This document shows, one piece after another, positions 1,594 to 56,156 of a stretch of DNA of 64,000 nucleotides. The stretch's first letter is position 1. Every line of letters starts with the position of its first letter. The DNA lies in NCBI GenBank assembly GCA_034530875.2, contig JAVRCJ020000004.1, forward strand, positions 96,001-160,000, written 5' to 3'. The translations under genes and the position numbers were made by a program. Source of the DNA: Nostoc sp. DedSLP01 (GTDB lineage Bacteria; Cyanobacteriota; Cyanobacteriia; Cyanobacteriales; Nostocaceae). Under the pieces are notes generated by a model. It ran no database searches. It saw nothing but the letters and a program-made list of their open reading frames with translations, and was not told the DNA's origin.

Positions 1594-2874
1594 ATGACAA
1601 CCTTGCTGCAAAAATCGCCTATCTATCGCACTGTATTAAATAATGGCATTGTCGTGTTAGTGGCAGAAAACCCGGCTGCGGATATTATTGCAGCGCGGAT
1701 TTTTGTGCGTGCTGGTAGTTGTCACGAAAGCCAAGAACAAGCAGGGTTGGCACATTTGTTATCAGCAGTAATGACGAAGGGATGCGATGGACTTTCTAGC
1801 TTGGAAATTGCTGAAAAAGTTGAGTCTGTCGGGGCGAGTTTGAGTGCAGATGCGGGCACTGATTATTTTTTACTATCTTTCAAGACGGTAACATCGGATT
1901 TTGCAGAAATATTAACATTGGCAGGGTTGATGTTGCGATCGCCAACTTTCCCAGAAGTCCAAGTGGAACTAGAACGGCGTCTAGCATTACAAGATATTCG
2001 TTCGCAAAAAGAGCAACCCTTCACTGTCGCCTTTGAACAAATGCGGCAGGCAATGTACCAAAATCATCCATATTCGATGTCGATATTGGGAGATGAAACA
2101 ACTATGAGCCGCTTAACTCGTGCGGACTTAGTGGACTATCATCAAACTTATTTCCGTCCAGATAATTTGGTAATTAGTATTGCCGGCCGAGTCACACCCA
2201 CAGATGCAGTAGCATTGGTAAGAGAAGTTTTTGGTGATTGGCAAATTCCACCACAAGCACTCCCAGTTCTCAATTTACCTGAGATTAAAGTCGAACCCCA
2301 GGTAAAGCTGAAGCCACAACAAACTCAACAATCAATTGTCATGCTGGGCTATTTGGGCGCATCGGTGAGTTCTCCTGACTACGCCCCATTGAAGTTGCTG
2401 TGTACCTACTTGGGAAATGGGCTTTCTAGCCGCTTGTTTGTGGAATTGCGCGAAAAGCGAGGTTTAGCTTACGAAGTATCTGCTTTTTACTCAACCAGGC
2501 TATACCCAGCTTCGTTTGTGGTTTACATGGGTACAGCACCAGAGAATACCAGCATAGCCATAGAAGGACTGCGCACAGAAGTAGATTTATTATCTAGCAC
2601 AGAAGTATCCCCAAGCGCCCTGCAAGCTGCTAAAAACAAGATTCTGGGGCAATATGCTTTGGGCAAACAAACAAACGGACAAATTGCTCAAATATACGGT
2701 TGGTATGAGATTTTGGGCTTAGGAATTGATTTTGATACTAAGTTCCAAGAACTAATCGCTGCTGTAGATGCCAAAGACGCCATCGCGGTAGCTTCCAAGT
2801 ATTTACAGGAACCTTACGTGTCTTTAGTTGGTCAAGAAGCAGCAATTAATGGAGCGATCGCAAAAGGTATATAA
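1594..2874 (+). CDS. M16 family peptidase, non-catalytic partner subunit
   Basis: M16 fold motifs (SRLFVELREKRGLAY) but HxxEH is replaced by HLLSA; lies in tandem with the catalytic subunit. Confidence 0.9.
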   Translation: MTTLLQKSPIYRTVLNNGIVVLVAENPAADIIAARIFVRAGSCHESQEQAGLAHLLSAVMTKGCDGLSSLEIAEKVESVGASLSADAGTDYFLLSFKTVTSDFAEILTLAGLMLRSPTFPEVQVELERRLALQDIRSQKEQPFTVAFEQMRQAMYQNHPYSMSILGDETTMSRLTRADLVDYHQTYFRPDNLVISIAGRVTPTDAVALVREVFGDWQIPPQALPVLNLPEIKVEPQVKLKPQQTQQSIVMLGYLGASVSSPDYAPLKLLCTYLGNGLSSRLFVELREKRGLAYEVSAFYSTRLYPASFVVYMGTAPENTSIAIEGLRTEVDLLSSTEVSPSALQAAKNKILGQYALGKQTNGQIAQIYGWYEILGLGIDFDTKFQELIAAVDAKDAIAVASKYLQEPYVSLVGQEAAINGAIAKGI

Positions 2875-2888
2875 TCTGCACAGGCGTA

Positions 2889-3014
2889 ATACCAATTCAC
2901 TAAAATTTTGAAACAGATTCAAATCCAGAAGCCTTTGTCAAATATGGATTTCTTAATTTTGAATTTTGTTAGCGCAGCGTTAGCGAGTTTACGAGCGTCA
3001 TTTTGAATTGGTAT
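2889..3014. mobile_element. MITE-like element with an internal short dispersed repeat
   Basis: Terminal inverted repeats ATACCAATTCA / TGAATTGGTAT. Internal ATTTTGA repeats are interrupted by AGCGCAGCGTTAGCGAGTTTACGAGCGTC. Confidence 0.6.
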
Positions 3015-3103
3015 AACCTGCTGGATACATCGCTGTCTGTAGCAGCTGTTTTTTAGACCAAGCGGCTGTACCATTAGCATCAGAATATTTTGGAAGTAAA
3101 TCT

Positions 3104-4150
3104 ATGCAAAACAGCCTGACAGCAAGTATTTTGAGTTACTTAAAATTACTAGATCCAACTGTAAATCACTCTAGATTAAAAAAACCGCAAAAGAGTTCGC
3201 AGACACAGCAATCTAAGTCTTTATCAGCAATTAAAATACTACTGTTCTCCACTACACCTGTAGCAATTGCTTTCTCTGCCCTAGTATCAATTGCAGCCCC
3301 ACAAAAAATAGCCCAAGTAAATCCCGGAGATAGTATCAACCGTCCTACCTTAACAGTTGGTAGCCAAGGCGAACGCGTATCCGAACTTCAGGCAGCTTTG
3401 AAACTTTTGGGTTTTTATTCTGGTTTAGTAGATGGTATATACAGTGAAAATACAGCCAGTGCCGTTTCCCAATTTAAACAAGCAGCTGGCTTAAATCCAG
3501 ATGGCATCGTTGACGCGGCAACTTGGCAACGGCTTTTTCCTAAGGAACCTGGTGTAGCATCAACGGTTCCTTCATCCGGACAAGGATTTAACTCAGCTAC
3601 AAATTTTCCTGTTCCAACCCAGGCTAGCAATATCACCCAAGTTGCAAATCCCAAGCCTAACCCACCAAGACAAGCTGTAACGCAAGTTCCTACCAAACCC
3701 AACCCGCCAAAAAAATCTACAACTCAAAATACTACACAGGCCAAGCCACCAAAAAAAGCCACAACACAAGCTAGCGGCAGTCCCGAACCTAGACCTGCTA
3801 AACCGGGACAAGCTCAGAAAACACCAAAACGTACTACATCAAATACTAGAAATCAGCCAACCACACGCAGCAGGCAAACTACTAAAACTGAGTCAAATAC
3901 CAGTACTCAGCGAACCCCTGGCATTCAATACACCTCAGAAGGATTCCCAATTTTACGCTTAGGTTTACGTGGTTCGGAAGTTGTGAAGTTGCAACAACAA
4001 CTCAAAAAGCTTGGTTACTTAAAAGGCGATGTAGATGGAGACTTTGGCCCCACAACTGAGGAAGCTGTGAAAGCTTTACAAAAACGCTACGGTTTAGAAG
4101 CTGATGGCGTGGCTGGCGGGGCTACTTGGGAAATTCTTTCGCGGCGTTAG
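3104..4150 (+). CDS. Peptidoglycan-binding domain protein (two PG_binding_1 domains, P/T/K/Q-rich linker)
   Basis: Two repeats of V-x-x-LQ-x-x-LK-x-LG(F/Y)...DG-x-(Y/F)...T-x-x-AV...GL-x-x-DG...TW; hydrophobic N-terminal segment. Confidence 0.88.
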   Translation: MQNSLTASILSYLKLLDPTVNHSRLKKPQKSSQTQQSKSLSAIKILLFSTTPVAIAFSALVSIAAPQKIAQVNPGDSINRPTLTVGSQGERVSELQAALKLLGFYSGLVDGIYSENTASAVSQFKQAAGLNPDGIVDAATWQRLFPKEPGVASTVPSSGQGFNSATNFPVPTQASNITQVANPKPNPPRQAVTQVPTKPNPPKKSTTQNTTQAKPPKKATTQASGSPEPRPAKPGQAQKTPKRTTSNTRNQPTTRSRQTTKTESNTSTQRTPGIQYTSEGFPILRLGLRGSEVVKLQQQLKKLGYLKGDVDGDFGPTTEEAVKALQKRYGLEADGVAGGATWEILSRR

Positions 4151-5370: not shown

Positions 5371-5934
5371 TTACTCCAAAAGCCAACCAAATAAATCTCC
5401 CACCGTCAGGTGCAACTCACTTGCAAAATCTGGTACAGGAATTAAAGCTTCTAACTCATCCAACATAACTGGCTGTTTATTGCGTATGTACACAAACACC
5501 GTTTGTTCTTCTGGGTCAATCAGCCAGCCCATTTGTGTTTCGTAATTCAGGCAATGTAAAATATTTTTTGTAACTTTGGTTTGTTTTTGGTCTGGTGATA
5601 GAATTTCGATAGTCCAATCCGTAGCCGCTTGGAAAACATTCGCAACTTGGCCATTTTCATCGCGAGGAATTTTCTCCCGAGTAAATACCGCCACATCTGG
5701 GACAATCGATCTGCCACCAAATGTACACCGCAGTTCTGGAAAAGCACGAGCGATTTTCTTGGGCTTCAGGCTTAAGTTAATGGTGCTAACCATTTCACCT
5801 TGAATTATACTGTGCTTTCCCTGTGGCATAGGTTTTTGAATAATTTGACCATCAATGTATTCACTAGCAGGTTTTGTTTCTGGTAGCATCAGAAACTCTT
5901 CTAAAGTTATATTTTTTGATGGTGTTCTTACCAT
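5371..5934 (-). CDS. Uma2 family (DUF820) PD-(D/E)xK endonuclease-like protein
   Basis: LPETKPASEY, VPDVAV, DWTIEILSP and GWLIDP motifs. Confidence 0.92.
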   Translation of the reverse strand: MVRTPSKNITLEEFLMLPETKPASEYIDGQIIQKPMPQGKHSIIQGEMVSTINLSLKPKKIARAFPELRCTFGGRSIVPDVAVFTREKIPRDENGQVANVFQAATDWTIEILSPDQKQTKVTKNILHCLNYETQMGWLIDPEEQTVFVYIRNKQPVMLDELEALIPVPDFASELHLTVGDLFGWLLE

Positions 5935-15993: not shown

Positions 15994-16080
15994 TGATACT
16001 TATTCTTTATAATTCTTAACATTACTACTTATAATATTACAGCGTTTTTCATCTATTTGGACTTGAATTACATATCCGCC

Positions 16081-16283
16081 TTGCAATGCGATCGCATCGG
16101 CTTGCAATTTAATTGCATCGACCTGCAATTTAATTGCATCGACCTGCAATACGATTGCATCGACCTGCAATACGATTGCATCGGCTTGCAATGCGATTGC
16201 ATCGACCTGCAATGCGATTGCATCGACATGCAATACGATTACATCGACCTGCAATGCGATTGCATCGACATGCAATTTGATTG
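16081..16283. repeat. Tandem array of about 9.7 21-bp units, consensus CTGCAATRCGATTGCATCGAC
   Basis: Units read directly; each contains the palindrome TGCAAT-N3-ATTGCA; no unique spacers. Confidence 0.92.
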
Positions 16284-16516
16284 GGGTCTTGTCATTGCAG
16301 AAGAAATGCAACCAACTGTGGACTTATCTTTGTGGTAGATAGGTATACTCAACAAATAATCGCTATCCAACAAGATCGCTCACTTTTATCTGCTCTCTGA
16401 AAATTACGTTACTCCCCTACGCAGTACTTTATTAGCAGCCAGATTTGATGCGATAATTAGATGCTGAGAGCGAGCAAGATTGAAGTCTTGCCCACTCTGC
16501 TCGGCTTGCCCCATTT

Positions 16517-23729: not shown

Positions 23730-25574
23730 ATGCAAATCTGCCAAAATCCCAATTGCTCAAATCCATTTAATTCTGATAGCAATAGATTTTGTATCAGTTG
23801 CGGACAAAGCAACTTTGGCAAACTTCTCAGAAACCGCTACCGCGTTTTGGGGCTATTAGGAGAAGGTGGGTTTAGCAGAACTTATGCCACAGAAGATGTA
23901 GATAGACTAAATGCCCCCTGCGTCATCAAGCAATTTTTCCCGCAATTTCAAGGAACGGCACAACGCACTAAAGCAGCCCAATTTTTCAAAGAAGAAGCTT
24001 TTCGGCTGTACGAACTGGGAGAAAATCATACCCAAATTCCCAGATTACTTGCTTATTTTGAGCAAGGTACTAGTTTGTACCTCGTACAAGAATTTATTCA
24101 AGGTAAAACCCTTTTACAAGAAGTTCAGCAACAAATTTATGGCGAACAAGAAATTTGGCAACTTTTAGCTGATTTGTTACCAGTTCTAGAATTTATTCAT
24201 GCCAGTAACATTATTCATCGGGATATTAAACCAGAAAATATTATTCGCCGTGCCAGCGATGGTAAACCAGTATTAATTGACTTTGGTGGTGCTAAACAGG
24301 TAACACAAACTAGTTTTGGCAGACAAGCTACAGTAATTTATACAGTTGGTTATGCCCCAACCGAACAAATGGCTGGATTTGCTTGTCAGGCAAGCGATTT
24401 ATATGCTTTGGGCGTAACTTGCGTGCGCCTTCTGACTCAATGTTTGCCTTTACAATATGTTTCCGGACAAATTAAAGATCCTATTTATGATGCCATGAAT
24501 GCTAAGTGGCTGTGGCGCGAAAAATTACAAGAAAAAGGTATTACTATCAGCGACGAACTAGGAAAGATTTTAGAGAAATTACTCCAACATTTACCCAATG
24601 ACAGGTATCAAACAGCAACAGAAGTTATTAAAGATTTGGAATTTACAAAATTAAACTTGGAACCTGTTGCGCTCAAAATGGTTTCCATTCCCAAACCCAT
24701 ATTATCGCTGCCACGACCAAAAATAATAGTACCATTACCGCCTTTAAAAACTTTTGAATTTGATGTCGTGACAGTAGACACAGGAAGTAGAGAAGTTAGC
24801 CGCGTTAGTCGTAGTGCAGAATTTTTTGCGGAAGAATTGGGTAAGTCTGTCAGCCTGGAAATGGTATCAATTCCTAGCGGTACGTATATGATGGGTTCGC
24901 CAGAGTTTGAAGGAGATGCTGACGAATGTCCTCAACGCCAAGTTACTGTAAAACCATTTTTTATGGGAAAATTTCCTGTAACTCAAGCACAGTGGAGAGT
25001 GGTAGCAGCTTTACCCAAAGTCAAACAAACCTTAAATCCTAATCCATCAAAATTCAAAGGTTTAGATAGACCAGTAGAAAATGTATCTTGGTACGAAGCT
25101 GTAGAATTTTGTCTCAGGCTATCAGAAAAAACTGGACGCGACTATCGTTTACCGAGTGAAGCTGAATGGGAATATGCTTGTCGTGCTGGAACTAAGACAT
25201 CCTTTCACTTTGGCGAAACCATTACCAGTGATTTAGTTTGCTGTGCTGACGAACCAAAAAGCAAATTCCGCAAAGAAACAACAAACGTAGGCAGTTTTGA
25301 AGTAGCGAATGCTTTTGGATTGTACGATATGCACGGGCTAGTTTGGGAATGGTGCGCCGACCCGTGGCATAACAATTATCATGATGCGCCTGCCTATGCA
25401 AGTGTTTGGGAAGTCGGGGGTGATATGCATCGCCGGGTGTTACGCGGTGGTTCTTGGAATTTCAGCGCCGAACTTTGTCGCAGCGCCAGCCGTAGTTGGA
25501 ATGAGTCAGACGGCGGGTTGAGGATTTGTGGCTTTCGGGTGGTATTTTCTAGCGAAGGAATACCGGAATATTAG
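23730..25574 (+). CDS. Ser/Thr protein kinase with N-terminal 4-Cys motif and C-terminal FGE-sulfatase (CLec-fold) domain
   Basis: CQNPNC..CISC, GEGGF, HRDIKPEN, DFG; RLPSEAEWEYACRAG, FGLYDMHG and RGGSW...GFRVV. Confidence 0.93.
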   Translation: MQICQNPNCSNPFNSDSNRFCISCGQSNFGKLLRNRYRVLGLLGEGGFSRTYATEDVDRLNAPCVIKQFFPQFQGTAQRTKAAQFFKEEAFRLYELGENHTQIPRLLAYFEQGTSLYLVQEFIQGKTLLQEVQQQIYGEQEIWQLLADLLPVLEFIHASNIIHRDIKPENIIRRASDGKPVLIDFGGAKQVTQTSFGRQATVIYTVGYAPTEQMAGFACQASDLYALGVTCVRLLTQCLPLQYVSGQIKDPIYDAMNAKWLWREKLQEKGITISDELGKILEKLLQHLPNDRYQTATEVIKDLEFTKLNLEPVALKMVSIPKPILSLPRPKIIVPLPPLKTFEFDVVTVDTGSREVSRVSRSAEFFAEELGKSVSLEMVSIPSGTYMMGSPEFEGDADECPQRQVTVKPFFMGKFPVTQAQWRVVAALPKVKQTLNPNPSKFKGLDRPVENVSWYEAVEFCLRLSEKTGRDYRLPSEAEWEYACRAGTKTSFHFGETITSDLVCCADEPKSKFRKETTNVGSFEVANAFGLYDMHGLVWEWCADPWHNNYHDAPAYASVWEVGGDMHRRVLRGGSWNFSAELCRSASRSWNESDGGLRICGFRVVFSSEGIPEY

Positions 25575-25734
25575 CTTTTTTTCAACGCAAAGGTACGCAA
25601 AAGTAAACGCAAAGGTACGCGGAGGTTTTTTAGAGAATCATTAGGCGCATTTTCATAGAGAATTGGCATGAATTGGAAACTAAAGTTGAAAAACTGCTAA
25701 TATTAATCAAAAATTGAAACTTTTAGAGGTGTAA

Positions 25735-26088
25735 ATGAGTGAAATTCCTCTTTGTACTATAGTGATTTCATCCCAGCTGCCTCCAAATGAAATAGAGTCT
25801 TTAGAAACATCCCTGGAGATGAATTCAATCAAAGTGCAAAAGTCACCCAGTCGGATAATAGGTGCAGATGACATAGTTTTTGTGGCTACAGTTATTGGAG
25901 GGATAGCAGCAACAGCCAATTTGATAGAGTACAGTATCAAAGTCGCTAAGGCAATCAATAATTGGCGGCAAAAATTGCGAGAAAAAGGAACAGAACCAAA
26001 AGGCACGTTAGAACACCCAAAACGTCCCCCACTGGATTTAAGCACCGCTACTGATGAAGAAATAGAAGAATGGCTGTCTCAAAAGTAG
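25735..26088 (+). CDS. Small protein with a central Gly/Ala-rich hydrophobic helix (EACC1-like, tentative)
   Basis: RBS GAGGTG; segment IIGADDIVFVATVIGGIAATANLI followed by W-R-x-K; overlaps the next ORF by 19 nt. Confidence 0.7.
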   Translation: MSEIPLCTIVISSQLPPNEIESLETSLEMNSIKVQKSPSRIIGADDIVFVATVIGGIAATANLIEYSIKVAKAINNWRQKLREKGTEPKGTLEHPKRPPLDLSTATDEEIEEWLSQK

Positions 26089-29000
26089 CTAACAAAATTC
26101 CCCTTAGTCCAGGTTTAGAAAAAGTTACTAAACAAGATAATTCGTTCAGCAATCAAATTCTAATTTTGTTTTCAGCCCCTCTGTTGACTGAAGAGTTATC
26201 GCCAGTCGAAAATTTATCGATTCAGGAAGAAATTGATGCCATCGCTTTGGTGTTAGAGGATATATCTCACCCTATAGCAGTGGAAATAGTAGTTAAAGTA
26301 GCCACTTCACAGAATCTACAAGATGTGTTATCCCATCGTGTCAAACCACTGATTATTCATTTTATTGGTCATGGAATGAAAGATGGGGATAGTACAGCTT
26401 TGGTGTTAGAAGATGAAGTGGGGATTACTCGCTCTTTTAGTGAAGAAGAATTAGATATTGCTTTATCAAATCAAAAACAACCACCCTGTCAATTAGCATT
26501 ATTGAACGCCTGTCATTCAGAAAAGTTAGCTCAAGCTTTTATCAAAGCGGAAGTGTCTCATGTCATTGCGGTTAACGCCGAAGATAGAATTCTAGATGTT
26601 GCAGCCCGATGTTTTTCTCGACGAGTGTATCAGGCACTATTCAATCAAGATTCTGTTGCGAATAGTTTTTTATTAAGTCGTAATGCAGTTAAACTTGATG
26701 ATAAATTAAGAAAACTATTTAACTCTCAAACTTTTCAGCAAGGAGTTAATTTCGATGAAGCCTTCAAATTTCGATTGCTACCTCAAGCTTCTCATCATGA
26801 ATCGCTGATTATAGAACCAACAGATTCTCACCAGGTTATCTATCCCCAATGGTCAAATACTAATATTCCCCGTTACGATCCAAACTTTGTAGGACGCAGA
26901 CAAGAAATACATCAAGTAATTAAAGCACTAATAGAGTCCGATAAACGTTGTATTGCTCTACATGGGATGGGAGGAATCGGTAAAACTGCCTTAGCTTATG
27001 CTATTGGTCAGTGGTTACATGAACGCAACCGCTATAAGGATGGCGTTTGGTTTATTAGTTTGCGCGATACTGATTCTGTAGGAACGCTGATTACTAAAGT
27101 TAAACAGAGTCTCGAATTAAATAGTTTTGCTTTAGAGAAAGAGTTAAGAAATAGTCGAGTGTTGTTGATTCTTGATGATTTAGATAAATTGATTGAGAAA
27201 GAATCTGATGAACTCATTGAAGTTTTAAACTCACTTTTAGAACAGTGTCCTCATTTAAGGCTATTGTTGACTTCCCGCGATTCTCTTGTTAGGGATATTG
27301 TTTATTGCCATCAAGAAGAAGTTTGTAGCATGGGAGCATCAGAAACGAGAGAAATATTTAAAAAGTATGCGCCATCGCCAGCAGGATGGGGAGATAATGA
27401 TTTGGCAGAAGATTTTAATCTTTTAGTACAGTTTCTTGATGGTTATCCTTTACCCATTAAACTCGCAGCATCTTATATGGCAGAAACTCAATGCACTCTT
27501 AAGATGCTGTGTGAAGACTTGGACATTGAACCACTGGAAGTTCTTCGTTCTTATTCTCCTGAAGCAAGAAAAGAAAGAAGTCTGCGGATAACATTAGAGC
27601 GTTCTTTTGAAATGTTATCGGTAGAAGGGCAAGATATATTTCCTTTGTTAGCTTTCTTTCCTAGTGGATTAAGTCGGGATTTGGCGAGGGCTGTTTGGGG
27701 TAGAAGCGGAAATAAGGCTGTAATAGAACTGTTTAAGTTTTCAATGGCAGAAAAGTCTTCTACTGCATCTGATTGGAGAGTAACTTTGCCCGAACCTGCT
27801 CGTACTTATGCAGAAAGTAAATTACAAAAAGGAAGACGAATTGACTATCTTGCTCCGCAAGTTATGGATTTTTATTGTGGTAATTTCTGCAACAAAGTTC
27901 TCCAGTTTTTTGACAATGGAGATAAGAATAAAGGACAGCAATTACTTCTGGAAGAAAACTCAAACTTAGTTTCATTTCTTCAATGGGGTTACGAGAATGA
28001 AATAAGTTCAGATAAAATCTGTCGCAGTGCAAGGATAACAGCTTCCTTAAGTCCTTATTGGCGATGGATTGAAGCGAATCAAGACCCTTTGGCTAGATTG
28101 GAATTGGCAATCAAGGCAGCCCAAAGAAATCAGGATCGAGTGGGAGAAGATTTAGTGAGCAATGCCATCGCTGCTTTTTCTTCTAGAGAAGTATTTAAAG
28201 ATGTTCAATCTTGCGGACGAGAAAGTGATGCGTTAAACTCCTTTGAGTTTGAAACTGTCACCGTAAATCGTTGGGGCAAAATCATCGAACGAGAAACCAA
28301 GCAAGCCCAACACTTTAGCGAAGACCTGGGTGAAGGTATCACCTTAGAAATGGTCGTCATCCCCGGTAATACATTGATGATGGGTTCCCCAAAAGGGGAA
28401 GGATATCGCTCTGAAAAACCTCAGCATGAAGTGACAGTTCCATCCTTCTTCATGAGTAAGTATCCAGTCACCCAAGTACAATGGCGAGCCGTAGCAGCAC
28501 TACCCCAAGTTAACCGCGACTTAGAACCAGAACCATCGCGGTTTAGAGGAGATAACCGACCAGTAGAGCAAGTTTCCTGGTACGATGCGGTGGAATTTTG
28601 CGATCGCCTCTCCCAACATATAGGCAAAAGCTACCGCCTGCCTAGTGAAGCGGAATGGGAATATGCTTGCCGTGCTGGTACTGATACACCGTTTCATTTT
28701 GGAGAAACCATTACTGCTGAGTTAGCAAATTATGATGCCAGCACAACTTTTGCTGACGAACCCGAAGGAGAATATCGAGGAATAACCACCCCAGTAGGAG
28801 AATTTCCGCCTAACACCTTTGGGTTATATGATATGCACGGAAATGTCTGGGAATGGTGTCTGGACGATTGGCACGATAACTATGAAGGAGCGCCAACAGA
28901 TAGCAATCCTTGGTTTGATGATAATAATCTTTCTCAAAAAAAAGGAACAGCCGTGCTGCGGGGCGGTTCTTGGTTCAACTTTCCTAAGGACTGCCGTTTT

Positions 29001-29096
29001 GCGTCTCGCAGTCTCAACCTTAGGGCGGGGCGCGACGGCATCGACTTCAATATTGGTTTTCGTGTTGTCTGTGGGGTTACGGGGACTCTTAAGTAG
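26070..29096 (+). CDS. CHAT (caspase-like) protease + STAND/NB-ARC ATPase + FGE-sulfatase (CLec) multidomain protein
   Basis: CHAT dyad IIHFIGHG / LLNACHS; FVGR, Walker A GMGGIGKT, Walker B LLILDDLD, LLTSR, GYPLPI; C-terminal RLPSEAEWEYACRAG and RGGSW...GFRVVC. Confidence 0.9.
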   Translation: MAVSKVANKIPLSPGLEKVTKQDNSFSNQILILFSAPLLTEELSPVENLSIQEEIDAIALVLEDISHPIAVEIVVKVATSQNLQDVLSHRVKPLIIHFIGHGMKDGDSTALVLEDEVGITRSFSEEELDIALSNQKQPPCQLALLNACHSEKLAQAFIKAEVSHVIAVNAEDRILDVAARCFSRRVYQALFNQDSVANSFLLSRNAVKLDDKLRKLFNSQTFQQGVNFDEAFKFRLLPQASHHESLIIEPTDSHQVIYPQWSNTNIPRYDPNFVGRRQEIHQVIKALIESDKRCIALHGMGGIGKTALAYAIGQWLHERNRYKDGVWFISLRDTDSVGTLITKVKQSLELNSFALEKELRNSRVLLILDDLDKLIEKESDELIEVLNSLLEQCPHLRLLLTSRDSLVRDIVYCHQEEVCSMGASETREIFKKYAPSPAGWGDNDLAEDFNLLVQFLDGYPLPIKLAASYMAETQCTLKMLCEDLDIEPLEVLRSYSPEARKERSLRITLERSFEMLSVEGQDIFPLLAFFPSGLSRDLARAVWGRSGNKAVIELFKFSMAEKSSTASDWRVTLPEPARTYAESKLQKGRRIDYLAPQVMDFYCGNFCNKVLQFFDNGDKNKGQQLLLEENSNLVSFLQWGYENEISSDKICRSARITASLSPYWRWIEANQDPLARLELAIKAAQRNQDRVGEDLVSNAIAAFSSREVFKDVQSCGRESDALNSFEFETVTVNRWGKIIERETKQAQHFSEDLGEGITLEMVVIPGNTLMMGSPKGEGYRSEKPQHEVTVPSFFMSKYPVTQVQWRAVAALPQVNRDLEPEPSRFRGDNRPVEQVSWYDAVEFCDRLSQHIGKSYRLPSEAEWEYACRAGTDTPFHFGETITAELANYDASTTFADEPEGEYRGITTPVGEFPPNTFGLYDMHGNVWEWCLDDWHDNYEGAPTDSNPWFDDNNLSQKKGTAVLRGGSWFNFPKDCRFASRSLNLRAGRDGIDFNIGFRVVCGVTGTLK

Positions 29097-29168
29097 CCCT
29101 TTATACTTTTTACCTTTTGCACTTTACACTTGTTCTTTTTTTCTTTTCTTTTGTCGCCATAAGGCGAC
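28953..29168 (+). other. Putative DGR variable region with downstream pyrimidine tract and hairpin
   Basis: Non-conserved codons between RGGSW and GFRVV end almost always in C/T; hairpin GTCGCC-ATAA-GGCGAC at 29153-29168. Confidence 0.65.
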
Positions 29169-29211
29169 TCGATTTTTTTAACATCTTTTGAAGTTAAAGT
29201 TGATGACGAAC

Positions 29212-29345
29212 CAATACGGTTCGGTTAAGGTTTTTTCATGAAAATTTTAGATCCCAAAGAAGCGATAAATCGCCGTCTCTACAAAAATCAATCCTTTGTA
29301 GAGACGGCGATTTATCGCGTCTCTTGCCTTAACCGAACGGTATTG
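29212..29345. mobile_element. 134-bp MITE with 19-bp TIRs carrying an inverted pair of REP-like units
   Basis: CAATACGGTTCGGTTAAGG / CCTTAACCGAACGGTATTG (18/19); degenerate 10-bp flanks GATGACGAAC / GATAACAAAT; internal GCGATAAATCGCCGTCTCTACA...TGTAGAGACGGCGATTTATCGC. Confidence 0.8.
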
Positions 29346-29998: not shown

Positions 29999-30781
29999 AT
30001 GGTCATCGAAGCTAAAAATCTTGCCTTACCAGATCATACTCAACTACCAGAGTCCGATGGTACTTTCGTGAAAAATTTCCAAGAACATCCTCAAAGTATT
30101 CTATTGACTGATTCTATCCTGCCACGATTACAAGAAATTCATCCTGACGGCTATTATTGTATCGGTCAAGACTCTGGTATTTACTGGCGGTTAACAGAAC
30201 CACCAGAACGGGGTGCTGAGGCACCAGATTGGTTTTACGTACCTAATGTTCCACCAACTCTTGACGGTCAATTCCGACGTTCTTATGTTTTTTGGCAAGA
30301 ATTGATTGCACCGATGATTGTTTTAGAATTTGTCTCAGGAGATGGAGAGGAAGAACGAGATAAAACCCCTTACAAAGGAAAATTTTGGATTTATGAAAAT
30401 ATTATCCGTCCTCCTTATTACGGCATTTATGAAGTTAAAAAATCATCGGTGGAAGTATATCAATTAGTGGCTAATCATTACGAAAAAATGGTTCCTAATA
30501 GTAGGGGACATTATCCAATTCCACCAATGGGTGTGGAATTAGGTATTTGGCAAGGTAACTTTGTATCAAACGAAGAAATACCTTGGTTGCGGTGGTGGGA
30601 TGAACAAGGTAATCTACTGCTAACAGGAGATGAACGTGCCGAAGTTGAACGCCAACGCGCGGAAGCTGAACGCCAACGTGCAGAAGCTGAACGCCAACGT
30701 GCAGAAACGGTAGAGCAGGAAAATCAGCGGTTGCGGGAACGGTTACGTGCATTGGGTATCGATCCTGATGCGTTGAGTTAG
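29999..30781 (+). CDS. Uma2 family endonuclease-like protein with C-terminal (ERQRAEA)n coiled coil
   Basis: LPDHTQLPESDG, APDWFYVP, LEFVS and WLRWWD motifs; 21-nt repeats near 30633-30705. Confidence 0.92.
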   Translation: MVIEAKNLALPDHTQLPESDGTFVKNFQEHPQSILLTDSILPRLQEIHPDGYYCIGQDSGIYWRLTEPPERGAEAPDWFYVPNVPPTLDGQFRRSYVFWQELIAPMIVLEFVSGDGEEERDKTPYKGKFWIYENIIRPPYYGIYEVKKSSVEVYQLVANHYEKMVPNSRGHYPIPPMGVELGIWQGNFVSNEEIPWLRWWDEQGNLLLTGDERAEVERQRAEAERQRAEAERQRAETVEQENQRLRERLRALGIDPDALS

Positions 30782-30991: not shown

Positions 30992-32806
30992 ATGCAAATC
31001 TGCCAAAATCCCAATTGCTCAAATCCTTTCAACCCTGATAGCAATAGATTTTGTATGAGTTGCGGACAAAATAACTTTGGCAACCTGCTGGGAAATCGCT
31101 ACCGTGTTTTGCAACTCTTAGGCGAAGGTGGGTTTGGTAGAACTTACACAGCAGAAGATACAGGTAGATTTGATGATGTTTGTGTCATTAAACAATTTTT
31201 TCCCCAAGTACAAGGAACAGCAGCACTTTCTAAAGCAGCAGAATTATTCAAACAAGAAGCTAAGCGACTTTATGAATTGGGAGAAAATCACTCTCAAATT
31301 CCGAGATTGTTAGCTTATTTTGAACAAGGTTCGAGCTTGTATTTGGTGCAAGAATTTATTCGCGGGCAAACTCTGCTCAAAGAACTTCAGCAAAAAGCTT
31401 TTAGTGAAGAACAAATTCGGGAACTTTTAGCAGATTTATTACCAGTTCTGCAATTCATCCACGATCGCAACGTCATCCATCGAGATATTAAGCCAGAAAA
31501 TATCATGCGAAGGGAGAGCGATCGCAAACTAATTCTAATAGATTTTGGCGGCGCCAAACAAGTAACACAAACTAGTTTAGCCAGACAAGCCACAGGAATT
31601 TACACCGTTGGTTATGCTCCTAGCGAACAAATGGCAGGATTCGCCACTCCTGTTAGCGATTTATATGCTTTGGGTGCAACTTGTGCCCGTCTTTTAACTC
31701 AAAGTCTGGCTGTGCAAGATACCTCTGGAAATCTCCATGACCGTCTTTATGATGCTTTTAACGCTCAGTGGATGTGGCGAGAACTTTTGCAAGAAAAAGG
31801 TGTTACTATCAGCGACGAGTTAGGGCAAATTTTAGATAAATTGCTCAAGCACTTGCCAAAGGAAAGATATCAATCAGCAGCAGAAGTTTTAGAAGATTTA
31901 AATTCTCCAAAAACCAAAATTCCAACAACAATTATTACAATTCCCCAACCGCAATTATTACCCGTTCAACCAAACACTACATCTCTACAAACTTTTGAAT
32001 TTGATGTAGTTAAAGTAGACGCAACAGGGAAACAAATTAGTCGTCAACGCCATAGTGCAAACTTCTTTGTTGAAGACTTGGGAAATGGTGTAATTCTCGA
32101 AATGGTATCCATTCCTGGTGGTACTTTTATCATGGGTTCAGCAGAGAACGAGGGAAAGGCTAATGAACGTCCACAGCATCAAGTAAAAGTTTCTGCATTC
32201 TTTATGGGTAAATATGAAATTACCCAAGCGCAGTATGAAGCAATTATGGGCACTAACCCTTCTTACTTCCGCACCAATGACGCAAACCGACCTGTGGAAA
32301 GTGTGAGTTGGAATGATGCGGTAGAATTTTGTCAAAAGTTGAGTCAAAAGACAAGACGAACCTATCGTTTACCCAGCGAAGCAGAATGGGAATATGCGTG
32401 TCGTGCTGGAACCACTACACCATTTTATTTTGGTGAAACGATTACCGTAGATTTAGCAAACTACAACGGAAATTATACATACGCCTCTGCACCAAAAGGT
32501 GAATATCGCAAGCAAACAACACCAGTAGGAAGTTTTCCTGCTAACGCCTTTGGTTTATACGATATGCACGGGTTAGTCTGGGAATGGTGTCAAGATAACC
32601 AGCATCATAATTACCAGGGCGCACCCACTGATGGTAGTGCTTGGTTACAAACTGGTTTATTCTCTAATTTGTTATCTGATAGAGTGATGCGCGGTGGTTC
32701 TTGGGGCTTTCTTCCAGAAGGTTGTCGCAGCGCAAATCGTAAGTCCGATGGTGCTAATATCCGTTTCAACAGTATTGGTTTTCGTGTTGTCTTAGTTTCC
32801 GTGTGA
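30992..32806 (+). CDS. Ser/Thr protein kinase with FGE-sulfatase (CLec-fold) domain; paralog of 23730-25574
   Basis: Same architecture as 23730-25574; first 35 nt of the two ORFs are identical; HRDIKPEN, DFG, RGGSW...GFRVV. Confidence 0.93.
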   Translation: MQICQNPNCSNPFNPDSNRFCMSCGQNNFGNLLGNRYRVLQLLGEGGFGRTYTAEDTGRFDDVCVIKQFFPQVQGTAALSKAAELFKQEAKRLYELGENHSQIPRLLAYFEQGSSLYLVQEFIRGQTLLKELQQKAFSEEQIRELLADLLPVLQFIHDRNVIHRDIKPENIMRRESDRKLILIDFGGAKQVTQTSLARQATGIYTVGYAPSEQMAGFATPVSDLYALGATCARLLTQSLAVQDTSGNLHDRLYDAFNAQWMWRELLQEKGVTISDELGQILDKLLKHLPKERYQSAAEVLEDLNSPKTKIPTTIITIPQPQLLPVQPNTTSLQTFEFDVVKVDATGKQISRQRHSANFFVEDLGNGVILEMVSIPGGTFIMGSAENEGKANERPQHQVKVSAFFMGKYEITQAQYEAIMGTNPSYFRTNDANRPVESVSWNDAVEFCQKLSQKTRRTYRLPSEAEWEYACRAGTTTPFYFGETITVDLANYNGNYTYASAPKGEYRKQTTPVGSFPANAFGLYDMHGLVWEWCQDNQHHNYQGAPTDGSAWLQTGLFSNLLSDRVMRGGSWGFLPEGCRSANRKSDGANIRFNSIGFRVVLVSV

Positions 32807-32920: not shown

Positions 32921-33484
32921 ATGGATAGCGTTGTTCTCAATCTAAAAGCGATCGCTAATTTAAGCGATGATCAATTTTATCAATTGTGTCTTGATAATCA
33001 CGATTTAAGCTTGGAAATGAATGCAGCAGGAGAATTAATCATTATGCCACCAGTCGGAGGAGAAAGCGGAAATCAAGAAGCTGGACTAATAACTGATTTA
33101 GAAATCTGGAATCGTCAAACGAAATTAGGCAAAGTTTTTAGTTCTTCAACTATTTTTATTCTGCCAAATGGTGCGAAACGTTCCCCTGATGCAGCTTGGG
33201 TGAAGTTGGAGAGATGGGAAGCTTTAACACCAGAACAGCGCAAAAAATTTCCGCCGCTTGTACCCGATTTTGTTATTGAACTGCGTTCTGAAACAGATAG
33301 GCTCCAACCCATCCAAGAGAAAATGCAAGAATATATCGAAAATGGTTTGCGTTTGGGATGGTTGATTAATCCTCAAGATGCAAATGTGGGAATTTACCGA
33401 ATCAAAAAAGCTGTAGAAGTTGTGCAAATGCCAGCGGTTCTTTGTGGAGAAGATATCTTACCAGGATTTGAGTTGCAACTGTAA
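32921..33484 (+). CDS. Uma2 family endonuclease-like protein
   Basis: GELIIMPP, RSPDAAWV, PDFVIELRS and LGWLINP motifs. Confidence 0.93.
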   Translation: MDSVVLNLKAIANLSDDQFYQLCLDNHDLSLEMNAAGELIIMPPVGGESGNQEAGLITDLEIWNRQTKLGKVFSSSTIFILPNGAKRSPDAAWVKLERWEALTPEQRKKFPPLVPDFVIELRSETDRLQPIQEKMQEYIENGLRLGWLINPQDANVGIYRIKKAVEVVQMPAVLCGEDILPGFELQL

Positions 33485-54557: not shown

Positions 54558-55850
54558 TTAAAAAATAAAAATTACTTGCAAGTTGAAGTTTTGCTCTTGG
54601 CGAACAATTTCAATTTTTCTAATAAATTCGCGGAAATAAAATCGTCGCTCTGTTTCTGATAAATCCAACCAGAATTGAGGAATAGAAACAGCAACAGCAA
54701 CAGAACGTAAATTAACTGGGGGAAGAATTGCTAATTTAGCTTCGAGTGCAGAAATTTCTGTACGGAGTTTATAAGCCCTTAACTTTGCTGTTTCGGTATC
54801 TAAAATTCCAGTTTCAACTAAATCGGGTAACTGAGCGAGTATTTCTTGCTGACGAGCGATCGCTTCACTTAAACTATTTTTGACTGCATCCAACTGTGGA
54901 AAATTCATTCCCGCTACAGCTAAGGGTAAGTCACGGCAAACTATTTCAATTGTCTGTTCTAAAACCTCTTGGTAAGCAATAGCCGGACACTTGGGGCGTC
55001 GCGGACAACTAACACAACGTAAATACAAATACTCTTTGTCTTGCTTGCGTTGAGTTACGCGAGTCACCGTTAGATGCGATTGACACTCGCCACAGACAAC
55101 CAACCCAGCTAAAGAACGTGGCGCACTAGCAGTACGTGATGGTAAACGGCTGTTACGGCGTAAAAGTCGGTCAACCTGGGCAGCTTCTTCCTTGGAAATG
55201 ATGGGAGTATGCGTATCGGAGATAATTTCACCGTTTTGGTAAGCTGTATTGCCGCGATAAACTGGATTAGTCAGCCAGCGTCGCCCAGTGGTAACAGAAA
55301 TTTTTTTACCGTATTTTTTCGCCAAGTAGCGGACTGAACCCCGCAAAGAACCATAGAGTAAAAAATTCTCAAAAAAATCCTTGACTACTGGTGAGGTACT
55401 GCGGTCAATGATATATTTTCCCTTGCCTCTGCGGTAGCCGTAAGGAACTTTGCCTGGTGGCGGCGCAGCGTCGAGCCGATTGCGGGCGTGTCCTTGACGG
55501 ATGCGACGACTGCGTTGTTCGCGTTGAATTGCATGTAGCAAACTCAGCAAGTCAGCCCGAAGAGGAGAATTTTCTGAAGTGTAGGGTTGTTCAGTAGCGA
55601 TTACCATCACTCCCATTGCTTCGAGTTCATTCAGGCGATCGCTTACTTCTTCTACAGTATCCCCCAATTCTTCCAATCGACGCACTAATAGATAATCTAC
55701 ACCTTCAGTTTGGCAATCTCTGAGTAATTGTTGTAATTGCGTTCGCTTGCCTAAATCTTGATAAACTCGATCGACTTCCCATCCCCAATCATCTTTATTG
55801 AGAGAAGATTCTAGTAAAGGATCGGTGTAACAATAGGCAATAATTTTCAT
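54558..55850 (-). CDS. Large serine recombinase-family protein, apparently lacking catalytic residues
   Basis: Resolvase-like N-terminus, PYGY, L.NPVY.G, H.PIIS, LAGLVVCGEC..C zinc ribbon, coiled coil; YxRxS is replaced by YCYTD. Confidence 0.85.
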   Translation of the reverse strand: MKIIAYCYTDPLLESSLNKDDWGWEVDRVYQDLGKRTQLQQLLRDCQTEGVDYLLVRRLEELGDTVEEVSDRLNELEAMGVMVIATEQPYTSENSPLRADLLSLLHAIQREQRSRRIRQGHARNRLDAAPPPGKVPYGYRRGKGKYIIDRSTSPVVKDFFENFLLYGSLRGSVRYLAKKYGKKISVTTGRRWLTNPVYRGNTAYQNGEIISDTHTPIISKEEAAQVDRLLRRNSRLPSRTASAPRSLAGLVVCGECQSHLTVTRVTQRKQDKEYLYLRCVSCPRRPKCPAIAYQEVLEQTIEIVCRDLPLAVAGMNFPQLDAVKNSLSEAIARQQEILAQLPDLVETGILDTETAKLRAYKLRTEISALEAKLAILPPVNLRSVAVAVSIPQFWLDLSETERRFYFREFIRKIEIVRQEQNFNLQVIFIF

Positions 55851-55917
55851 TCAGCATTGGGCATTGGGTATGGGGCATTGGACAGAGGCGCAAAAAAGAA
55901 TGGAGTTTTTATATTTG

Positions 55918-56156
55918 TTGACGAGTATTAAAGGCTCATTAACGGAGTTCTGAGGTTCATTAATGAGTATCAAAGACTCATTAACGGAGTTCTGAGGTTC
56001 ATTAATGAGTATTAAAGGCTCATTAACGGAGTTCTGAGGTTCATTAATGAGTATCAAAGACTCATTAACGGAGTTCTGAGGTTCATTAATGAGTATCAAA
56101 GACTCATTAATGGAGTTCTGAGGTTCATTAACGAGTATCAAAGGCTCATTAATGAG
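55918..56156. repeat. Tandem array of about 5.5 42-bp units (two 21-bp halves)
   Basis: Unit TTAATGAGTATYAAAGRCTCA-TTAACGGAGTTCTGAGGTTCA read directly. Confidence 0.92.

What the first reader, a model, noticed from the sequence alone, without database searches (positions are those of the whole stretch)
25735..29096. Candidate protease-based immune module: small EACC1-like substrate plus a CHAT-STAND receptor with a CLec (DGR-type) sensor
Seen: a 117-aa ORF with one Gly/Ala-rich hydrophobic helix overlaps by 19 nt a 1008-aa ORF. The large ORF has an intact caspase-type His/Cys dyad (FIGHG, NACHS), an NB-ARC/STAND ATPase with intact Walker A and B, a helical region and a C-terminal FGE-sulfatase/CLec domain. 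Known: STAND proteins oligomerise when their C-terminal sensor binds ligand and so activate an N-terminal effector. Small genes coupled upstream of caspase/trypsin-STAND genes (EACC1, Trypco/Pepco types) are proposed protease substrates. CLec tips are the usual cyanobacterial DGR targets. Inference: an NLR-like receptor in which a hypervariable CLec domain takes the place of the usual TPR/WD40 sensor, cleaving a co-translated membrane-active protein. That would be a diversifiable recognition/cell-death module in a filamentous cyanobacterium. The EACC1 resemblance is by eye only.
Basis: partly seen in the sequence, partly recalled or inferred. Interest (0 to 1): 0.85.

Follow-up and report, generated by a model that had tools for sequence, protein, structure and literature searches.

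The report
Protease-gated cell-death receptor with frozen hypervariable sensor
A small pore-toxin-like gene is coupled to a large caspase-type "immune receptor" gene whose sensor tip was once rewritten by a mutagenic retroelement that this genome no longer has; it is a well-preserved example of a recently described kind of bacterial defence module.

Summary
A 117-aa ORF (25735-26088) overlaps by 19 nt a 1008-aa ORF (26070-29096) that reads CHAT, then NB-ARC/NACHT, then FGE-sulfatase/CLec, with invariant His101/Cys148 and Walker A/B.

The small ORF is a real, conserved cyanobacterial gene. In 40 of 42 related loci it sits directly upstream of the same large gene, and in 35 of 42 with the same 19-nt overlap.

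It does not reach Pfam's EACC1 model. The links to EACC1 are indirect: 14 of 91 remote relatives give sub-threshold EACC1 matches in one register, and architecture and gene context fit.

The CLec tail is a DGR variable region. Its hypervariable codons are NNC/NNT across 30 orthologs. They coincide with AAC/AAT codons of a template repeat (TR) in a bAvd-RT-TR cassette of a relative. 17 of 20 substitutions between the window's variable region (VR) and that TR fall on TR adenines.

This genome has no TR, no bAvd and no DGR-type RT, so the sensor is frozen here.

Best reading: an NLR-like abortive-infection module in which ligand-activated CHAT cleaves an EACC1-like pro-toxin. This follows Kaur 2020, Doré 2024 and Evans 2025. 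It is a new member of a known kind, of moderate interest.

The parts
25686..25714 (+). Promoter-like site upstream of the small gene (weak consensus match only)
   Evidence: TTGAAA, 17 nt, AAAAAT, 9 of 12 matches. The region holds 3 such sites, against a mean of 7.9 in shuffles, so this is not evidence of function.
25725..25729 (+). Shine-Dalgarno-like AGAGG, 5 nt before the ATG of the small gene
   Evidence: Read directly.
25735..26088 (+). 117-aa EACC1-like small gene (putative protease-activated pore-forming pro-toxin)
   Evidence: It is a conserved family. The model is alpha+beta with pLDDT 78.4 and pTM 0.70. 14 of 91 remote relatives give sub-threshold PF19953 matches.
25852..25872 (+). 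Linker codons R40-D46 (invariant R40 and D45; near-invariant G43 and D46): the inferred protease site
   Evidence: One search gives the conservation. One search shows a loop at 38-45 between strands, with the lowest pLDDT blocks (64-70). The cleavage itself is inferred.
25873..25926 (+). Hydrophobic Gly/Ala-rich segment I47-I64
   Evidence: G56 and A59 near-invariant. models it as strand 46-55 plus the start of helix 59-83.
26070..29096 (+). 1008-aa CHAT-NB-ARC-CLec gene, starting 19 nt inside the small gene
   Evidence: The N-terminal residues are conserved in 30 orthologs (M1 near-invariant, P11 invariant), which supports this start codon.
26166..26663 (+). CHAT (clan CD cysteine protease) domain, residues 33-198; His101 codon 26370-26372, Cys148 codon 26511-26513
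   Evidence: PF12770, 34.3 bits. H101 and C148 are invariant in 30 of 30. PDB 8tl0 'CHAT domain-containing protein', E 1.3e-6.
26901..27539 (+). NB-ARC/NACHT STAND NTPase, residues 278-490; Walker A at 26964-26987
   Evidence: NB-ARC 58.3 bits and NACHT 45.8 bits. G299-T306 (except position 303) and D369/D370 are invariant.
27540..28346 (+). Linker region between NTPase and sensor, residues 491-759; no family found
   Evidence: no Pfam family at E up to 10 for residues 491-757.
28347..29069 (+). FGE-sulfatase / C-type-lectin-fold sensor domain, residues 760-1000
   Evidence: 187.3 bits. PvdO 5hha at E 1.2e-42, and the Treponema DGR variable protein 2y3c at E 5.5e-26.
28956..29073 (+). DGR variable region (VR), now without a template in this genome
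   Evidence: NNC/NNT codon signature; the VR aligns to the TR of a relative's bAvd-RT-TR cassette, with 17 of 20 substitutions at TR adenines.
29153..29178 (+). Intrinsic-terminator-like hairpin plus T-run after the large gene
   Evidence: 6-bp stem with 5 G-C pairs, a 4-nt loop and a T-rich tail.

Best explanation
This is a two-gene, translationally coupled cell-death (abortive-infection type) module.

The large protein is an NLR-like STAND receptor. Its C-terminal C-type-lectin-fold domain carries a binding surface that was written by a diversity-generating retroelement.

The proposed sequence of events is:
1. The sensor binds its ligand.
2. The NB-ARC NTPase oligomerises.
3. The N-terminal CHAT protease (His101/Cys148) is activated by proximity.
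4. CHAT cuts the 117-aa EACC1-like protein in the exposed R40-D46 linker.
5. The cut removes an N-terminal alpha/beta inhibitory part.
6. The freed C-terminal part (about residues 46-117, including the hydrophobic Gly/Ala segment) assembles into membrane pores and kills the cell.

In this genome the retroelement is missing, so the sensor specificity is fixed.

Shown here: the gene structure, the domains, the conserved catalytic residues, the conserved gene pairing, and the DGR origin of the sensor tip.

Inferred from published work on a distant homologue: cleavage, pore formation, the nature of the trigger and a defence role.
For: Gene pairing:
- Of 42 loci that hold a relative of the small gene, 40 carry a homologue of the large gene directly downstream. 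Of these, 38 were scanned by Pfam and all 38 have NB-ARC/NACHT. 31 of the 38 have FGE-sulfatase; the 7 without it are all cut ORFs. L004 and L008 were confirmed by tblastn.
- 35 of the 42 loci keep the 19-nt overlap.
- The flanking genes are not shared between loci, so the pair behaves as a unit.

Catalytic residues: H101, C148, Walker A and Walker B are invariant in 30 of 30 orthologs.

EACC1 link:
- A profile of the cyanobacterial family finds 109 proteins among 1.84 billion.
- 14 of the 91 I scanned give PF19953 matches of 16.5-23.1 bits, all in the same register (about profile positions 42-102 of 107). No other family recurs.
- The three nearest named Atlas clusters all carry PF19953, in 10%, 22% and 88% of members, at scores 0.89-0.87.
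- The model is alpha+beta around a central hydrophobic segment. This matches the published description of EACC1 (Kaur 2020, PMC7159879, passages read).

Sister module: the same genome holds a 122-aa gene followed by a CHAT-STAND-TPR gene. That small gene is the only other hit of the expanded profile among 29,187 ORFs (E 3.1e-5). It is also the genome's best, though sub-threshold, PF19953 match.

Complex prediction (CHAT 1-270 with the small protein):
- The tool's verdict is 'weak support': score 0.51 (three runs 0.51, 0.50, 0.54) against a best of 3 controls of 0.00.
- The mark was reached by 116 of 157 solved complexes and 2 of 215 mismatched pairs.
- At 0.60 or under it was reached by only 18 of those 157 and by both mismatches that passed.
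- The runs agree in at least 80% of contacts, and the partner's pLDDT is at least 83.
- My own alignments were used, so these counts hold only roughly.

Published mechanism (Evans et al., bioRxiv 10.1101/2025.11.14.688446; abstract and passages read):
- A Ktedonobacter EACC1 is cut by the caspase-like domain of KrAvs12 into 5.7 and 7.1 kDa fragments.
- The putative site is Asp49.
- Only the C-terminal fragment is toxic.
- Only cleaved EACC1 disrupts liposomes.

DGR origin of the sensor tip:
-.
- In one relative (G404), the orthologous VR matches a same-genome TR about 48 kb away, with 15 of 16 substitutions at TR adenines.
Against: - The window's small protein gives no PF19953 match at E up to 10. 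It is not among the own-genome matches at E up to 1.
- None of 401 cyanobacterial genomes reaches the PF19953 cut-off.
- hhalign of the family against a near-threshold EACC1 ORF that sits next to a Peptidase_C14 gene (L049, 23.0 bits) found nothing.
- hhalign against the in-genome sister small ORF gave only 49% probability (E 1.7e-4).
- The 14 linking proteins are all below Pfam's cut-off.
- The complex score is in the weak band, and no contacts were given, so the cleavage site is not located.
- The published cleavage site is an Asp. Here both R40 and D45 are invariant, and the more distant relatives keep the Arg better than the Asp.
- PADLOC gives only weak hits for the large protein (Avs4 14 bits, E 1.3e-3).
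- No trigger, no expression data and no phage link were obtained.
Confidence: 0.7

Rival explanations
1. The small protein is not a cleaved toxin. It is a membrane-associated sensor or anchor that activates or positions the CHAT protease. The protease then releases or activates something else, for instance its own C-terminal domains by auto-proteolysis. This was the original proposal for EACC1.
For: - Kaur et al. 2020 (PMC7159879, passages read) proposed this from the conserved hydrophobic helix with a patch of small residues.
- The same features are present here.
- The complex prediction says only that the two proteins may touch, not that one is cut.
Against: - Evans et al. 2025 report cleavage of EACC1, toxicity of its C-terminal fragment alone, and liposome disruption only by cleaved EACC1.
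- In the monomer model the hydrophobic stretch is packed into a soluble alpha/beta fold. That fits a latent pro-form better than a resident membrane anchor.
Confidence: 0.1
2. The module is real and works by proteolysis, but its role is not phage defence. It would serve developmental or stress-induced cell death, kin or partner recognition in filaments, or signalling. This is what has been argued for cyanobacterial DGR targets and orthocaspases.
For: - Vallota-Eastman et al. 2020 (PMC7517822, passages read) argue for signal-transduction roles of cyanobacterial CLec targets.
- The module here is flanked by two Ser/Thr-kinase-CLec genes.
- The window is otherwise housekeeping and signalling genes rather than a defence island.
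- The DNA is held by root-metagenome runs, so the organism may live with a host.
Against: - The distribution is patchy: 12 of 101 genomes of the family.
- Flanks are not syntenic between loci.
- Pseudogenised copies are frequent.
- These are the usual marks of conflict genes.
- The only experimentally studied EACC1 module responds to phage tail connector proteins.
Confidence: 0.12
3. The small protein is unrelated to EACC1. It is a different small partner, such as an inhibitor, chaperone or adaptor of the CHAT domain, that merely occupies the same position.
For: - Direct tests against PF19953 fail.
- hhalign against a near-threshold EACC1 ORF finds nothing.
- Foldseek finds no solved structure at E up to 0.001.
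Against: - 14 of 91 remote relatives hit PF19953 in one register, and no other family recurs.
- The nearest named Atlas clusters are all EACC1.
- Length, layout and upstream position match the family description.
Confidence: 0.08

Closest known systems
EACC1-caspase two-gene system ('System 4' of Kaur, Burroughs, Iyer & Aravind 2020, PMC7159879) and the EACC1-KrAvs12 module of Ktedonobacter racemifer (Evans et al. 2025, bioRxiv 10.1101/2025.11.14.688446)
   Same: - A 5' gene for a small protein of about 115-125 aa, with a central hydrophobic, small-residue-rich segment between alpha+beta parts.
- A 3' gene that starts with a caspase-superfamily protease followed by a STAND NTPase and a sensor.
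- A conserved acidic/basic linker just before the hydrophobic segment, where the published protein is cut (putative Asp49; here D45/D46 and R40).
   Different: - The small protein does not reach Pfam's EACC1 model, and no cyanobacterial genome of 401 did.
- The protease matches CHAT rather than Peptidase_C14.
- The sensor is a CLec/FGE-sulfatase domain with a DGR variable region, not the Avs12 sensor.
- Evans et al. state in the text that EACC1-protease pairs occur fused to DGR-associated domains. I could not see their Figure 6A, so I cannot say whether this exact architecture is drawn there.
DGR-diversified STAND-CLec 'antigen sensors' of multicellular bacteria (Doré et al. 2024, PMC10907252) and cyanobacterial DGR variable proteins (Vallota-Eastman et al. 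2020, PMC7517822)
   Same: - A C-terminal CLec/FGE fold with a 3'-terminal VR.
- A central NACHT/nSTAND NTPase.
- N-terminal peptidase or CHAT effectors are mentioned.
- Remote targets lie tens of kb from the cassette, as in relative G404.
   Different: - In this genome no cassette exists, so the VR is an orphan.
- Neither paper contains the term EACC1 in its text (PMC10907252: 0 occurrences; neither paper is among the 15 listed of 17 papers holding the term).
- The coupling of such a sensor to a pore-forming substrate is therefore not spelled out in those papers.
Antiviral STAND (Avs) proteins and eukaryotic NLRs
   Same: Tripartite layout of effector, NTPase and sensor. The expected mode of action is ligand-induced oligomerisation that activates the N-terminal effector (established knowledge of the family).
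   Different: - There is no significant match to a named Avs family in PADLOC (best Avs4, 14 bits).
- The effector acts on a separate substrate protein rather than being the killer itself.
Gasdermin-protease pairs (bacterial gasdermins)
   Same: The logic is the same: a protease removes an inhibitory part of a latent pore former. Evans et al. draw this analogy.
   Different: There is no sequence or fold relation. Here the inhibitory part is N-terminal and the protein is far smaller.

Membership tests
EACC1 (Pfam PF19953; Kaur 2020) | Match to the PF19953 profile at or above its gathering score (23.6 bits) | tested here: not met
   No PF19953 row for the window protein or for any of 40 family members at E up to 10. 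It is not among the own-genome matches at E up to 1. 0 of 401 cyanobacterial genomes are over the cut-off.
EACC1 (Pfam PF19953; Kaur 2020) | Remote homology to bona fide members by transitive or profile search | tested here: inconclusive
   - 14 of 91 remote relatives (found with family-profile E values of 1.4e-16 to 4.4e-4) give PF19953 matches of 16.5-23.1 bits in one register.
- The Atlas's three nearest named clusters carry PF19953.
- hhalign against a 23.0-bit EACC1 ORF found nothing.
- No above-threshold EACC1 sequence could be fetched for a clean profile-profile test.
EACC1 (Pfam PF19953; Kaur 2020) | Small stand-alone protein with one conserved central hydrophobic segment, a patch of small residues, and alpha+beta extensions on both sides | tested here: met
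   - 117 aa, with segment I47-I64 and near-invariant G56 and A59.
- The model has strands 2-12, 33-37, 46-55, 90-94 and 97-101, and helices 17-29, 59-83 and 107-114.
EACC1 (Pfam PF19953; Kaur 2020) | 5' gene of a pair whose 3' gene begins with a caspase-superfamily peptidase | tested here: met
   40 of 42 loci. CHAT is among the five rows shown for 28 of 38 downstream ORFs. His and Cys are invariant in 30 of 30.
EACC1 (Pfam PF19953; Kaur 2020) | Cut by the partner protease into an inert N-terminal and a toxic, membrane-permeabilising C-terminal fragment (Evans 2025) | not testable with these tools
   Only a weak in-silico contact signal was obtained, plus a conserved exposed linker.
CHAT / clan CD cysteine peptidases (PF12770) | Profile match above the cut-off and a conserved His/Cys catalytic dyad | tested here: met
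   34.3 bits against a cut-off of 24 when the N-terminus is scanned alone. Orthologs give 32-51 bits. H101 and C148 are invariant. PDB 8tl0 matches at E 1.3e-6.
STAND NTPases (NB-ARC/NACHT), NLR-like | NB-ARC/NACHT match with intact Walker A and B, placed between an effector and a sensor | tested here: met
   NB-ARC 58.3 bits and NACHT 45.8 bits. Walker A and B residues are invariant.
Named Avs families (PADLOC) | Significant match to an Avs model | tested here: not met
   The best match is Avs4 at 14 bits, E 1.3e-3, over the P-loop region only.
DGR variable protein (CLec-fold target) | C-terminal CLec/FGE-sulfatase fold with a 3'-terminal VR whose variable sites correspond to TR adenines (first and second codon positions) | tested here: met
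   - FGE-sulfatase scores 187.3 bits.
- The 19 hypervariable tail columns have mean entropy 1.63/1.54/0.82 at codon positions 1/2/3, against 1.26/1.20/1.26 for 55 hypervariable columns elsewhere. The third base is C in 29 of 30 at codons 969 and 981.
- 11 of 13 of these codons are AAC/AAT in a relative's TR.
- 17 of 20 window-versus-TR substitutions are at TR adenines, where A is 26% of the TR.
DGR variable protein (CLec-fold target) | Cognate TR, reverse transcriptase and accessory protein (bAvd) in the same genome | tested here: not met
   - No second copy of the VR exists in the genome.
- The only RVT_1 ORFs are a group II intron RT and a 600-aa RVT_1-only ORF.
- bAvd: 0 over the cut-off.
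- The assembly is 99.78% complete in 113 contigs.
- The feature is met in relatives G404 and G408.

The most novel reading that the evidence does not exclude
The retroelement may act as a transient 'writer'. Cyanobacterial lineages would gain a DGR, rewrite the sensor tip of this pore-coupled NLR-like receptor, then lose the DGR. Each strain would then inherit a different, fixed specificity, making up a population-level repertoire of germline-frozen receptors.

Observations consistent with this:
- 8 of 12 module-bearing genomes in a sample of 101 have no bAvd.
- The non-adenine scaffold of the window's VR is almost letter-identical to a TR from another genus.

I did not test this reading beyond those counts.
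Probability: 0.25. Interest if true: 0.6.

Novelty: new member of a known kind. Interest (0 to 1): 0.4.

Why it matters
What DGR-diversified C-type-lectin sensors in multicellular cyanobacteria recognise is an open question. Doré 2024 states that STAND-linked CLec domains have not been characterised experimentally.

This module couples such a sensor to a simple lethal read-out: protease, then small pore former. The same read-out was used to find the trigger of an EACC1-Avs12 system. A compact two-gene cassette of 3.4 kb with natural sensor variants from about 30 genomes makes that question directly testable.

It also shows three further points:
- Pfam's EACC1 model misses a whole cyanobacterial clade.
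- DGR-written receptors persist in genomes without a DGR.
- One genome can keep the same death module with either a TPR or a CLec sensor.

None of this changes the known picture. It extends it.

Tried and rejected
Searches that led nowhere:
- To fetch bona fide EACC1 members for a clean profile-profile test, I searched with the best intermediate (P0218) and with an alignment of 14 intermediates. Each returned only the query or members of the query alignment.
- tblastn of one intermediate and of the window protein against plasmids found no match.
- Foldseek of the small-protein model against the PDB gave nothing at E up to 0.001, only generic alpha/beta sandwiches.

DGR leads that were rejected:
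- A TR in the window: only 70-76% paralog matches between the three CLec genes.
- A local TR within the flanks held around 30 complete orthologs (about 5 kb upstream, 1.3-2.2 kb downstream): 0 of 30.
- TRs next to DGR-type RTs in two other relatives (L060, L068, L061) resemble the VRs. They carry indels and many non-adenine mismatches, so I did not count them as cognate.

Expression: no RNA holder is listed.

Read laying:
- Only assembled contigs were available.
- The three runs that hold the stretch may be its source, and they are identical to the window over all 3701 bases. Contigs drop rare variants, so this says nothing about VR heterogeneity.
- A relative's run (X4) left parts of the sensor region uncovered. 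I draw nothing from that.

Earlier findings of the scan: three look-ups returned nothing.

The antisense 112-aa ORF is rejected as a gene.

Full report
OBSERVATION

The large protein has these Pfam matches:
- FGE-sulfatase at residues 760-1000, 187.3 bits.
- NB-ARC at residues 278-490, 58.3 bits, and NACHT at 45.8 bits.
- CHAT at residues 33-198, 34.3 bits against a cut-off of 24. This match appeared only when the N-terminus was scanned alone.

An AGAGG lies 5 nt before the small gene's ATG. A hairpin plus T-run follows the large gene at 29153-29178.

THE SMALL ORF IS A REAL GENE

- It has 112 protein clusters of relatives among 121 candidates. Nearly all are 113-126 aa and come from filamentous and some unicellular cyanobacteria, with identity down to 53%.
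- I aligned 39 of these with the window protein (A1). M1, S12, L23, R40, D45, K69, W77, R78, R82, L92, A105, E109 and W113 are invariant.
- Over 26 ungapped copies, the entropy by codon position is 0.48/0.27/0.85.
- The overlapping antisense ORF has a stop in 15 of those 26.
- The genome holds one copy.

LINKAGE

A scan of one genome per species found 42 loci.
- In 35 of 42, the next ORF starts 19 nt before the small gene's stop.
- In L012, L033, L043 and L037 the distance is -16, -25, -40 and +4 nt.
- In L009 the small gene has a premature stop while the large gene is in place.
- I gave Pfam the 38 downstream ORFs of 350 aa or more. 38 of 38 have NB-ARC/NACHT.
- 31 of 38 have FGE-sulfatase. 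The 7 without it are cut by contig ends or broken frames.
- CHAT is among the five rows shown for 28 of 38.
- tblastn adds L004 (in-frame stop) and L008 (CHAT joined directly to CLec, with the STAND part deleted).
- Two loci have no partner. L039 has an intact small gene followed by short ORFs. L044 has only a fragment of the small gene.
- None of the window's flanking genes recurs beside the pair elsewhere.
- In a sample of 101 genomes of the same taxonomic family, 12 have the small gene.

So the pair is one conserved, patchily distributed unit.

IS IT EACC1?

Direct tests fail:
- There is no PF19953 row for the window protein or any of the 40 aligned members at E up to 10.
- It is not among the own-genome matches at E up to 1.
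- 0 of 401 cyanobacterial genomes reach the cut-off.

Indirect tests point to EACC1:
- The family profile finds 109 proteins among 1.84 billion representatives.
- I scanned 91 of them, leaving out 17 fragments and one protein already in A1.
- 14 of the 91 match PF19953 at 16.5-23.1 bits, always over about profile positions 42-102. No other family recurs.
- These 14 share the layout and the W-R and ATDEE..W motifs.
- The three nearest named clusters in the ESM Atlas carry PF19953, in 10%, 22% and 88% of members, with scores 0.89-0.87.
- The AlphaFold2 model (pLDDT 78.4, pTM 0.70) is alpha+beta. The hydrophobic stretch is packed as a strand plus a helix start, and there is a lower-confidence loop at residues 38-45.

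Against:
- hhalign with a 23.0-bit EACC1 ORF that precedes a Peptidase_C14 gene in a relative found nothing.

I file the protein as EACC1-like: probable superfamily member, with membership in the Pfam family not met.

A SISTER MODULE

On contig C31 of the same genome, a 122-aa ORF is followed one base later by a 1115-aa CHAT-STAND-TPR protein.
- That small ORF is the genome's best PF19953 match (14.6 bits, E 0.17).
- It is the only other hit of an expanded profile among 29,187 ORFs (E 3.1e-5).
- It aligns to A1 at 49% hhalign probability.

The same death module therefore exists in this genome with a TPR sensor and with a CLec sensor.

THE SENSOR IS A DGR VARIABLE REGION, NOW ORPHANED

Codon signature across 30 orthologs (A4):
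- The tail (residues 961-1008) has mean column entropy 1.64 bits, against 0.55-0.91 elsewhere.
- In the 19 hypervariable tail columns, the first and second codon positions vary (1.63 and 1.54 bits) while the third is nearly fixed (0.82). It is C in 29 of 30 at codons 969 and 981, and T in 29 of 30 at codon 971.
- The 55 hypervariable columns elsewhere show 1.26/1.20/1.26.

Match to a template repeat in a relative:
- In the genome that holds L015 (a Westiellopsis record), a cassette of bAvd (79 bits), a 352-aa RT (83.8 bits) and a TR was found.
- In that TR, 11 of the 13 hypervariable codons are AAC or AAT, in register with the window's VR.
- The window's VR aligns to that TR over 118 nt. There are 20 substitutions, 17 at TR adenines and 3 at C, plus one 6-nt gap. 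A makes up 26% of the TR.
- 28 of 30 ortholog VRs align to the TR, with adenine shares of 0.36-0.85. L034 and L035 gave no hit.

Same-genome TR-VR pairs in relatives:
- In the Westiellopsis genome, the module's VR matches the TR ungapped, with 17 of 26 mismatches at adenines. The cassette's own targets show 12 of 14 and 14 of 16.
- In the genome that holds L014, a TR about 48 kb from the module matches its VR with 15 of 16 substitutions at adenines and one 3-nt gap.

In the window's own genome:
- The VR has no second copy.
- The only reverse transcriptases are a group II intron protein and a 600-aa RVT_1-only ORF.
- No bAvd reaches the cut-off.
- The assembly is 99.78% complete.

In the 101-genome sample, 4 of the 12 module-bearing genomes have bAvd at E up to 1e-5, against 42 of the 89 without the module. 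These genomes are related, so this is not a statistical test.

The sensor tip was written by a DGR but cannot be rewritten in this strain as assembled.

MECHANISM

My proposal follows the published one:
1. A ligand binds the CLec sensor.
2. The STAND NTPase oligomerises.
3. CHAT is activated.
4. CHAT cuts the small protein in the R40-D46 linker.
5. The C-terminal fragment forms pores.

The experimental basis is Evans et al. 2025 (abstract and passages). I could not see their figures or supplements.

A complex prediction of CHAT 1-270 with the small protein gave the tool's 'weak support' verdict:
- Score 0.51 against a best control of 0.00.
- The mark was reached by 116 of 157 solved complexes and 2 of 215 mismatched pairs.
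- At 0.60 or under it was reached by only 18 of those 157 and by both mismatches that passed.
- The runs agree in at least 80% of contacts, and the partner's pLDDT is at least 83.
- My own alignments were used, so these counts hold only roughly.

Which residue is P1 is open. R40 is better kept than D45 in the distant relatives.

COMPARISON AND NOVELTY

- The EACC1-caspase pair was defined by Kaur et al. 2020 (passages).
- Its proteolytic pore mechanism was reported by Evans et al. 2025. Their text also says such pairs occur fused to DGR-associated domains and to Avs.
- DGR-diversified STAND-CLec sensors were described by Doré et al. 2024 (passages).
- Cyanobacterial CLec targets, including kinase, orthocaspase and CHAT-like fusions and remote targets, were described by Vallota-Eastman et al. 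2020 (passages).

What I did not find stated in the passages I read:
- The cyanobacterial clade escapes the Pfam model.
- The 19-nt overlap is fixed across genera.
- Most module-bearing genomes sampled lack a DGR.

I did not search the literature specifically for these three points, so I do not claim they are unpublished.

Noticed in passing
L104:107-475 and L104:477-3824 (own genome, contig C31:28706-32423): A second small-gene-plus-CHAT-STAND module in the same genome. A 122-aa EACC1-like ORF is followed one base later by a 1115-aa CHAT-nSTAND1/AAA_16-TPR protein. A Uma2 ORF lies nearby.
   Followed up: partly
window 23730-25574 and 30992-32806: Two paralogous Ser/Thr-kinase-FGE-sulfatase (CLec) genes flank the module. 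They are 71-80% identical to each other in parts. The 3' end of the second holds a 26-nt stretch that is 96% identical to the end of a relative's DGR template. Neither shows a full TR match.
   Followed up: partly
window 5371-5934 (-), 29999-30781 (+), 32921-33484 (+): Three Uma2-family (putative restriction-endonuclease-like) ORFs in one window, two of them interleaved with the CLec genes. The 260-aa one ends in a repeated ERQRAEA motif.
   Followed up: no
window 29258-29322: A 28-nt inverted repeat (96% complementary, 9-nt loop) just downstream of the module. In the contig laying, several other contigs end or begin here, which suggests a dispersed repeat.
   Followed up: no
window 56937-58514 (-), 58465-59808 (-), 54558-55850 (-): A KAP/AAA P-loop ORF (447 aa) overlaps by 50 nt a TPR_12-rich ORF (525 aa). 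This could be a split or two-part STAND-TPR protein. It lies next to a large serine recombinase. The TPR gene holds 120-nt tandem repeats (57064-57506).
   Followed up: no
window 16056-16304 and 55857-56192: Tandem arrays with periods of 21 nt (8 copies) and 42 nt (6 copies).
   Followed up: no
L008:5336-6866; L015:6889-7847; L004; L009: Decayed or rearranged copies of the module in relatives. In L008 the CHAT domain is joined directly to CLec with the STAND part deleted. L015 has an insertion of about 960 nt inside the large gene. L004 has an in-frame stop in the large gene. L009 has a premature stop in the small gene.
   Followed up: partly
L049:1447-1830 and 1933-3288 (genome G284): In a genome of the same taxonomic family, a 127-aa ORF just under the PF19953 cut-off (23.0 bits) is followed by a Peptidase_C14 caspase-domain protein. 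This is a second, different EACC1-type pair in cyanobacteria.
   Followed up: partly
proteins P0145 (535 aa), P0193 (495 aa), P0133 (199 aa): Relatives of the small protein occur as the C-terminal part of longer proteins, one with a weak Peptidase_M48 match. One 199-aa protein joins the first 73 residues to a CHAT fragment, which may be a frameshift fusion.
   Followed up: no
L002:994-2796 (own genome, contig C5:360475-362277): A 600-aa ORF whose only Pfam match is RVT_1 (59.2 bits). It has no group II intron maturase domains and no nearby template repeat. It is a reverse transcriptase of unassigned type.
   Followed up: no
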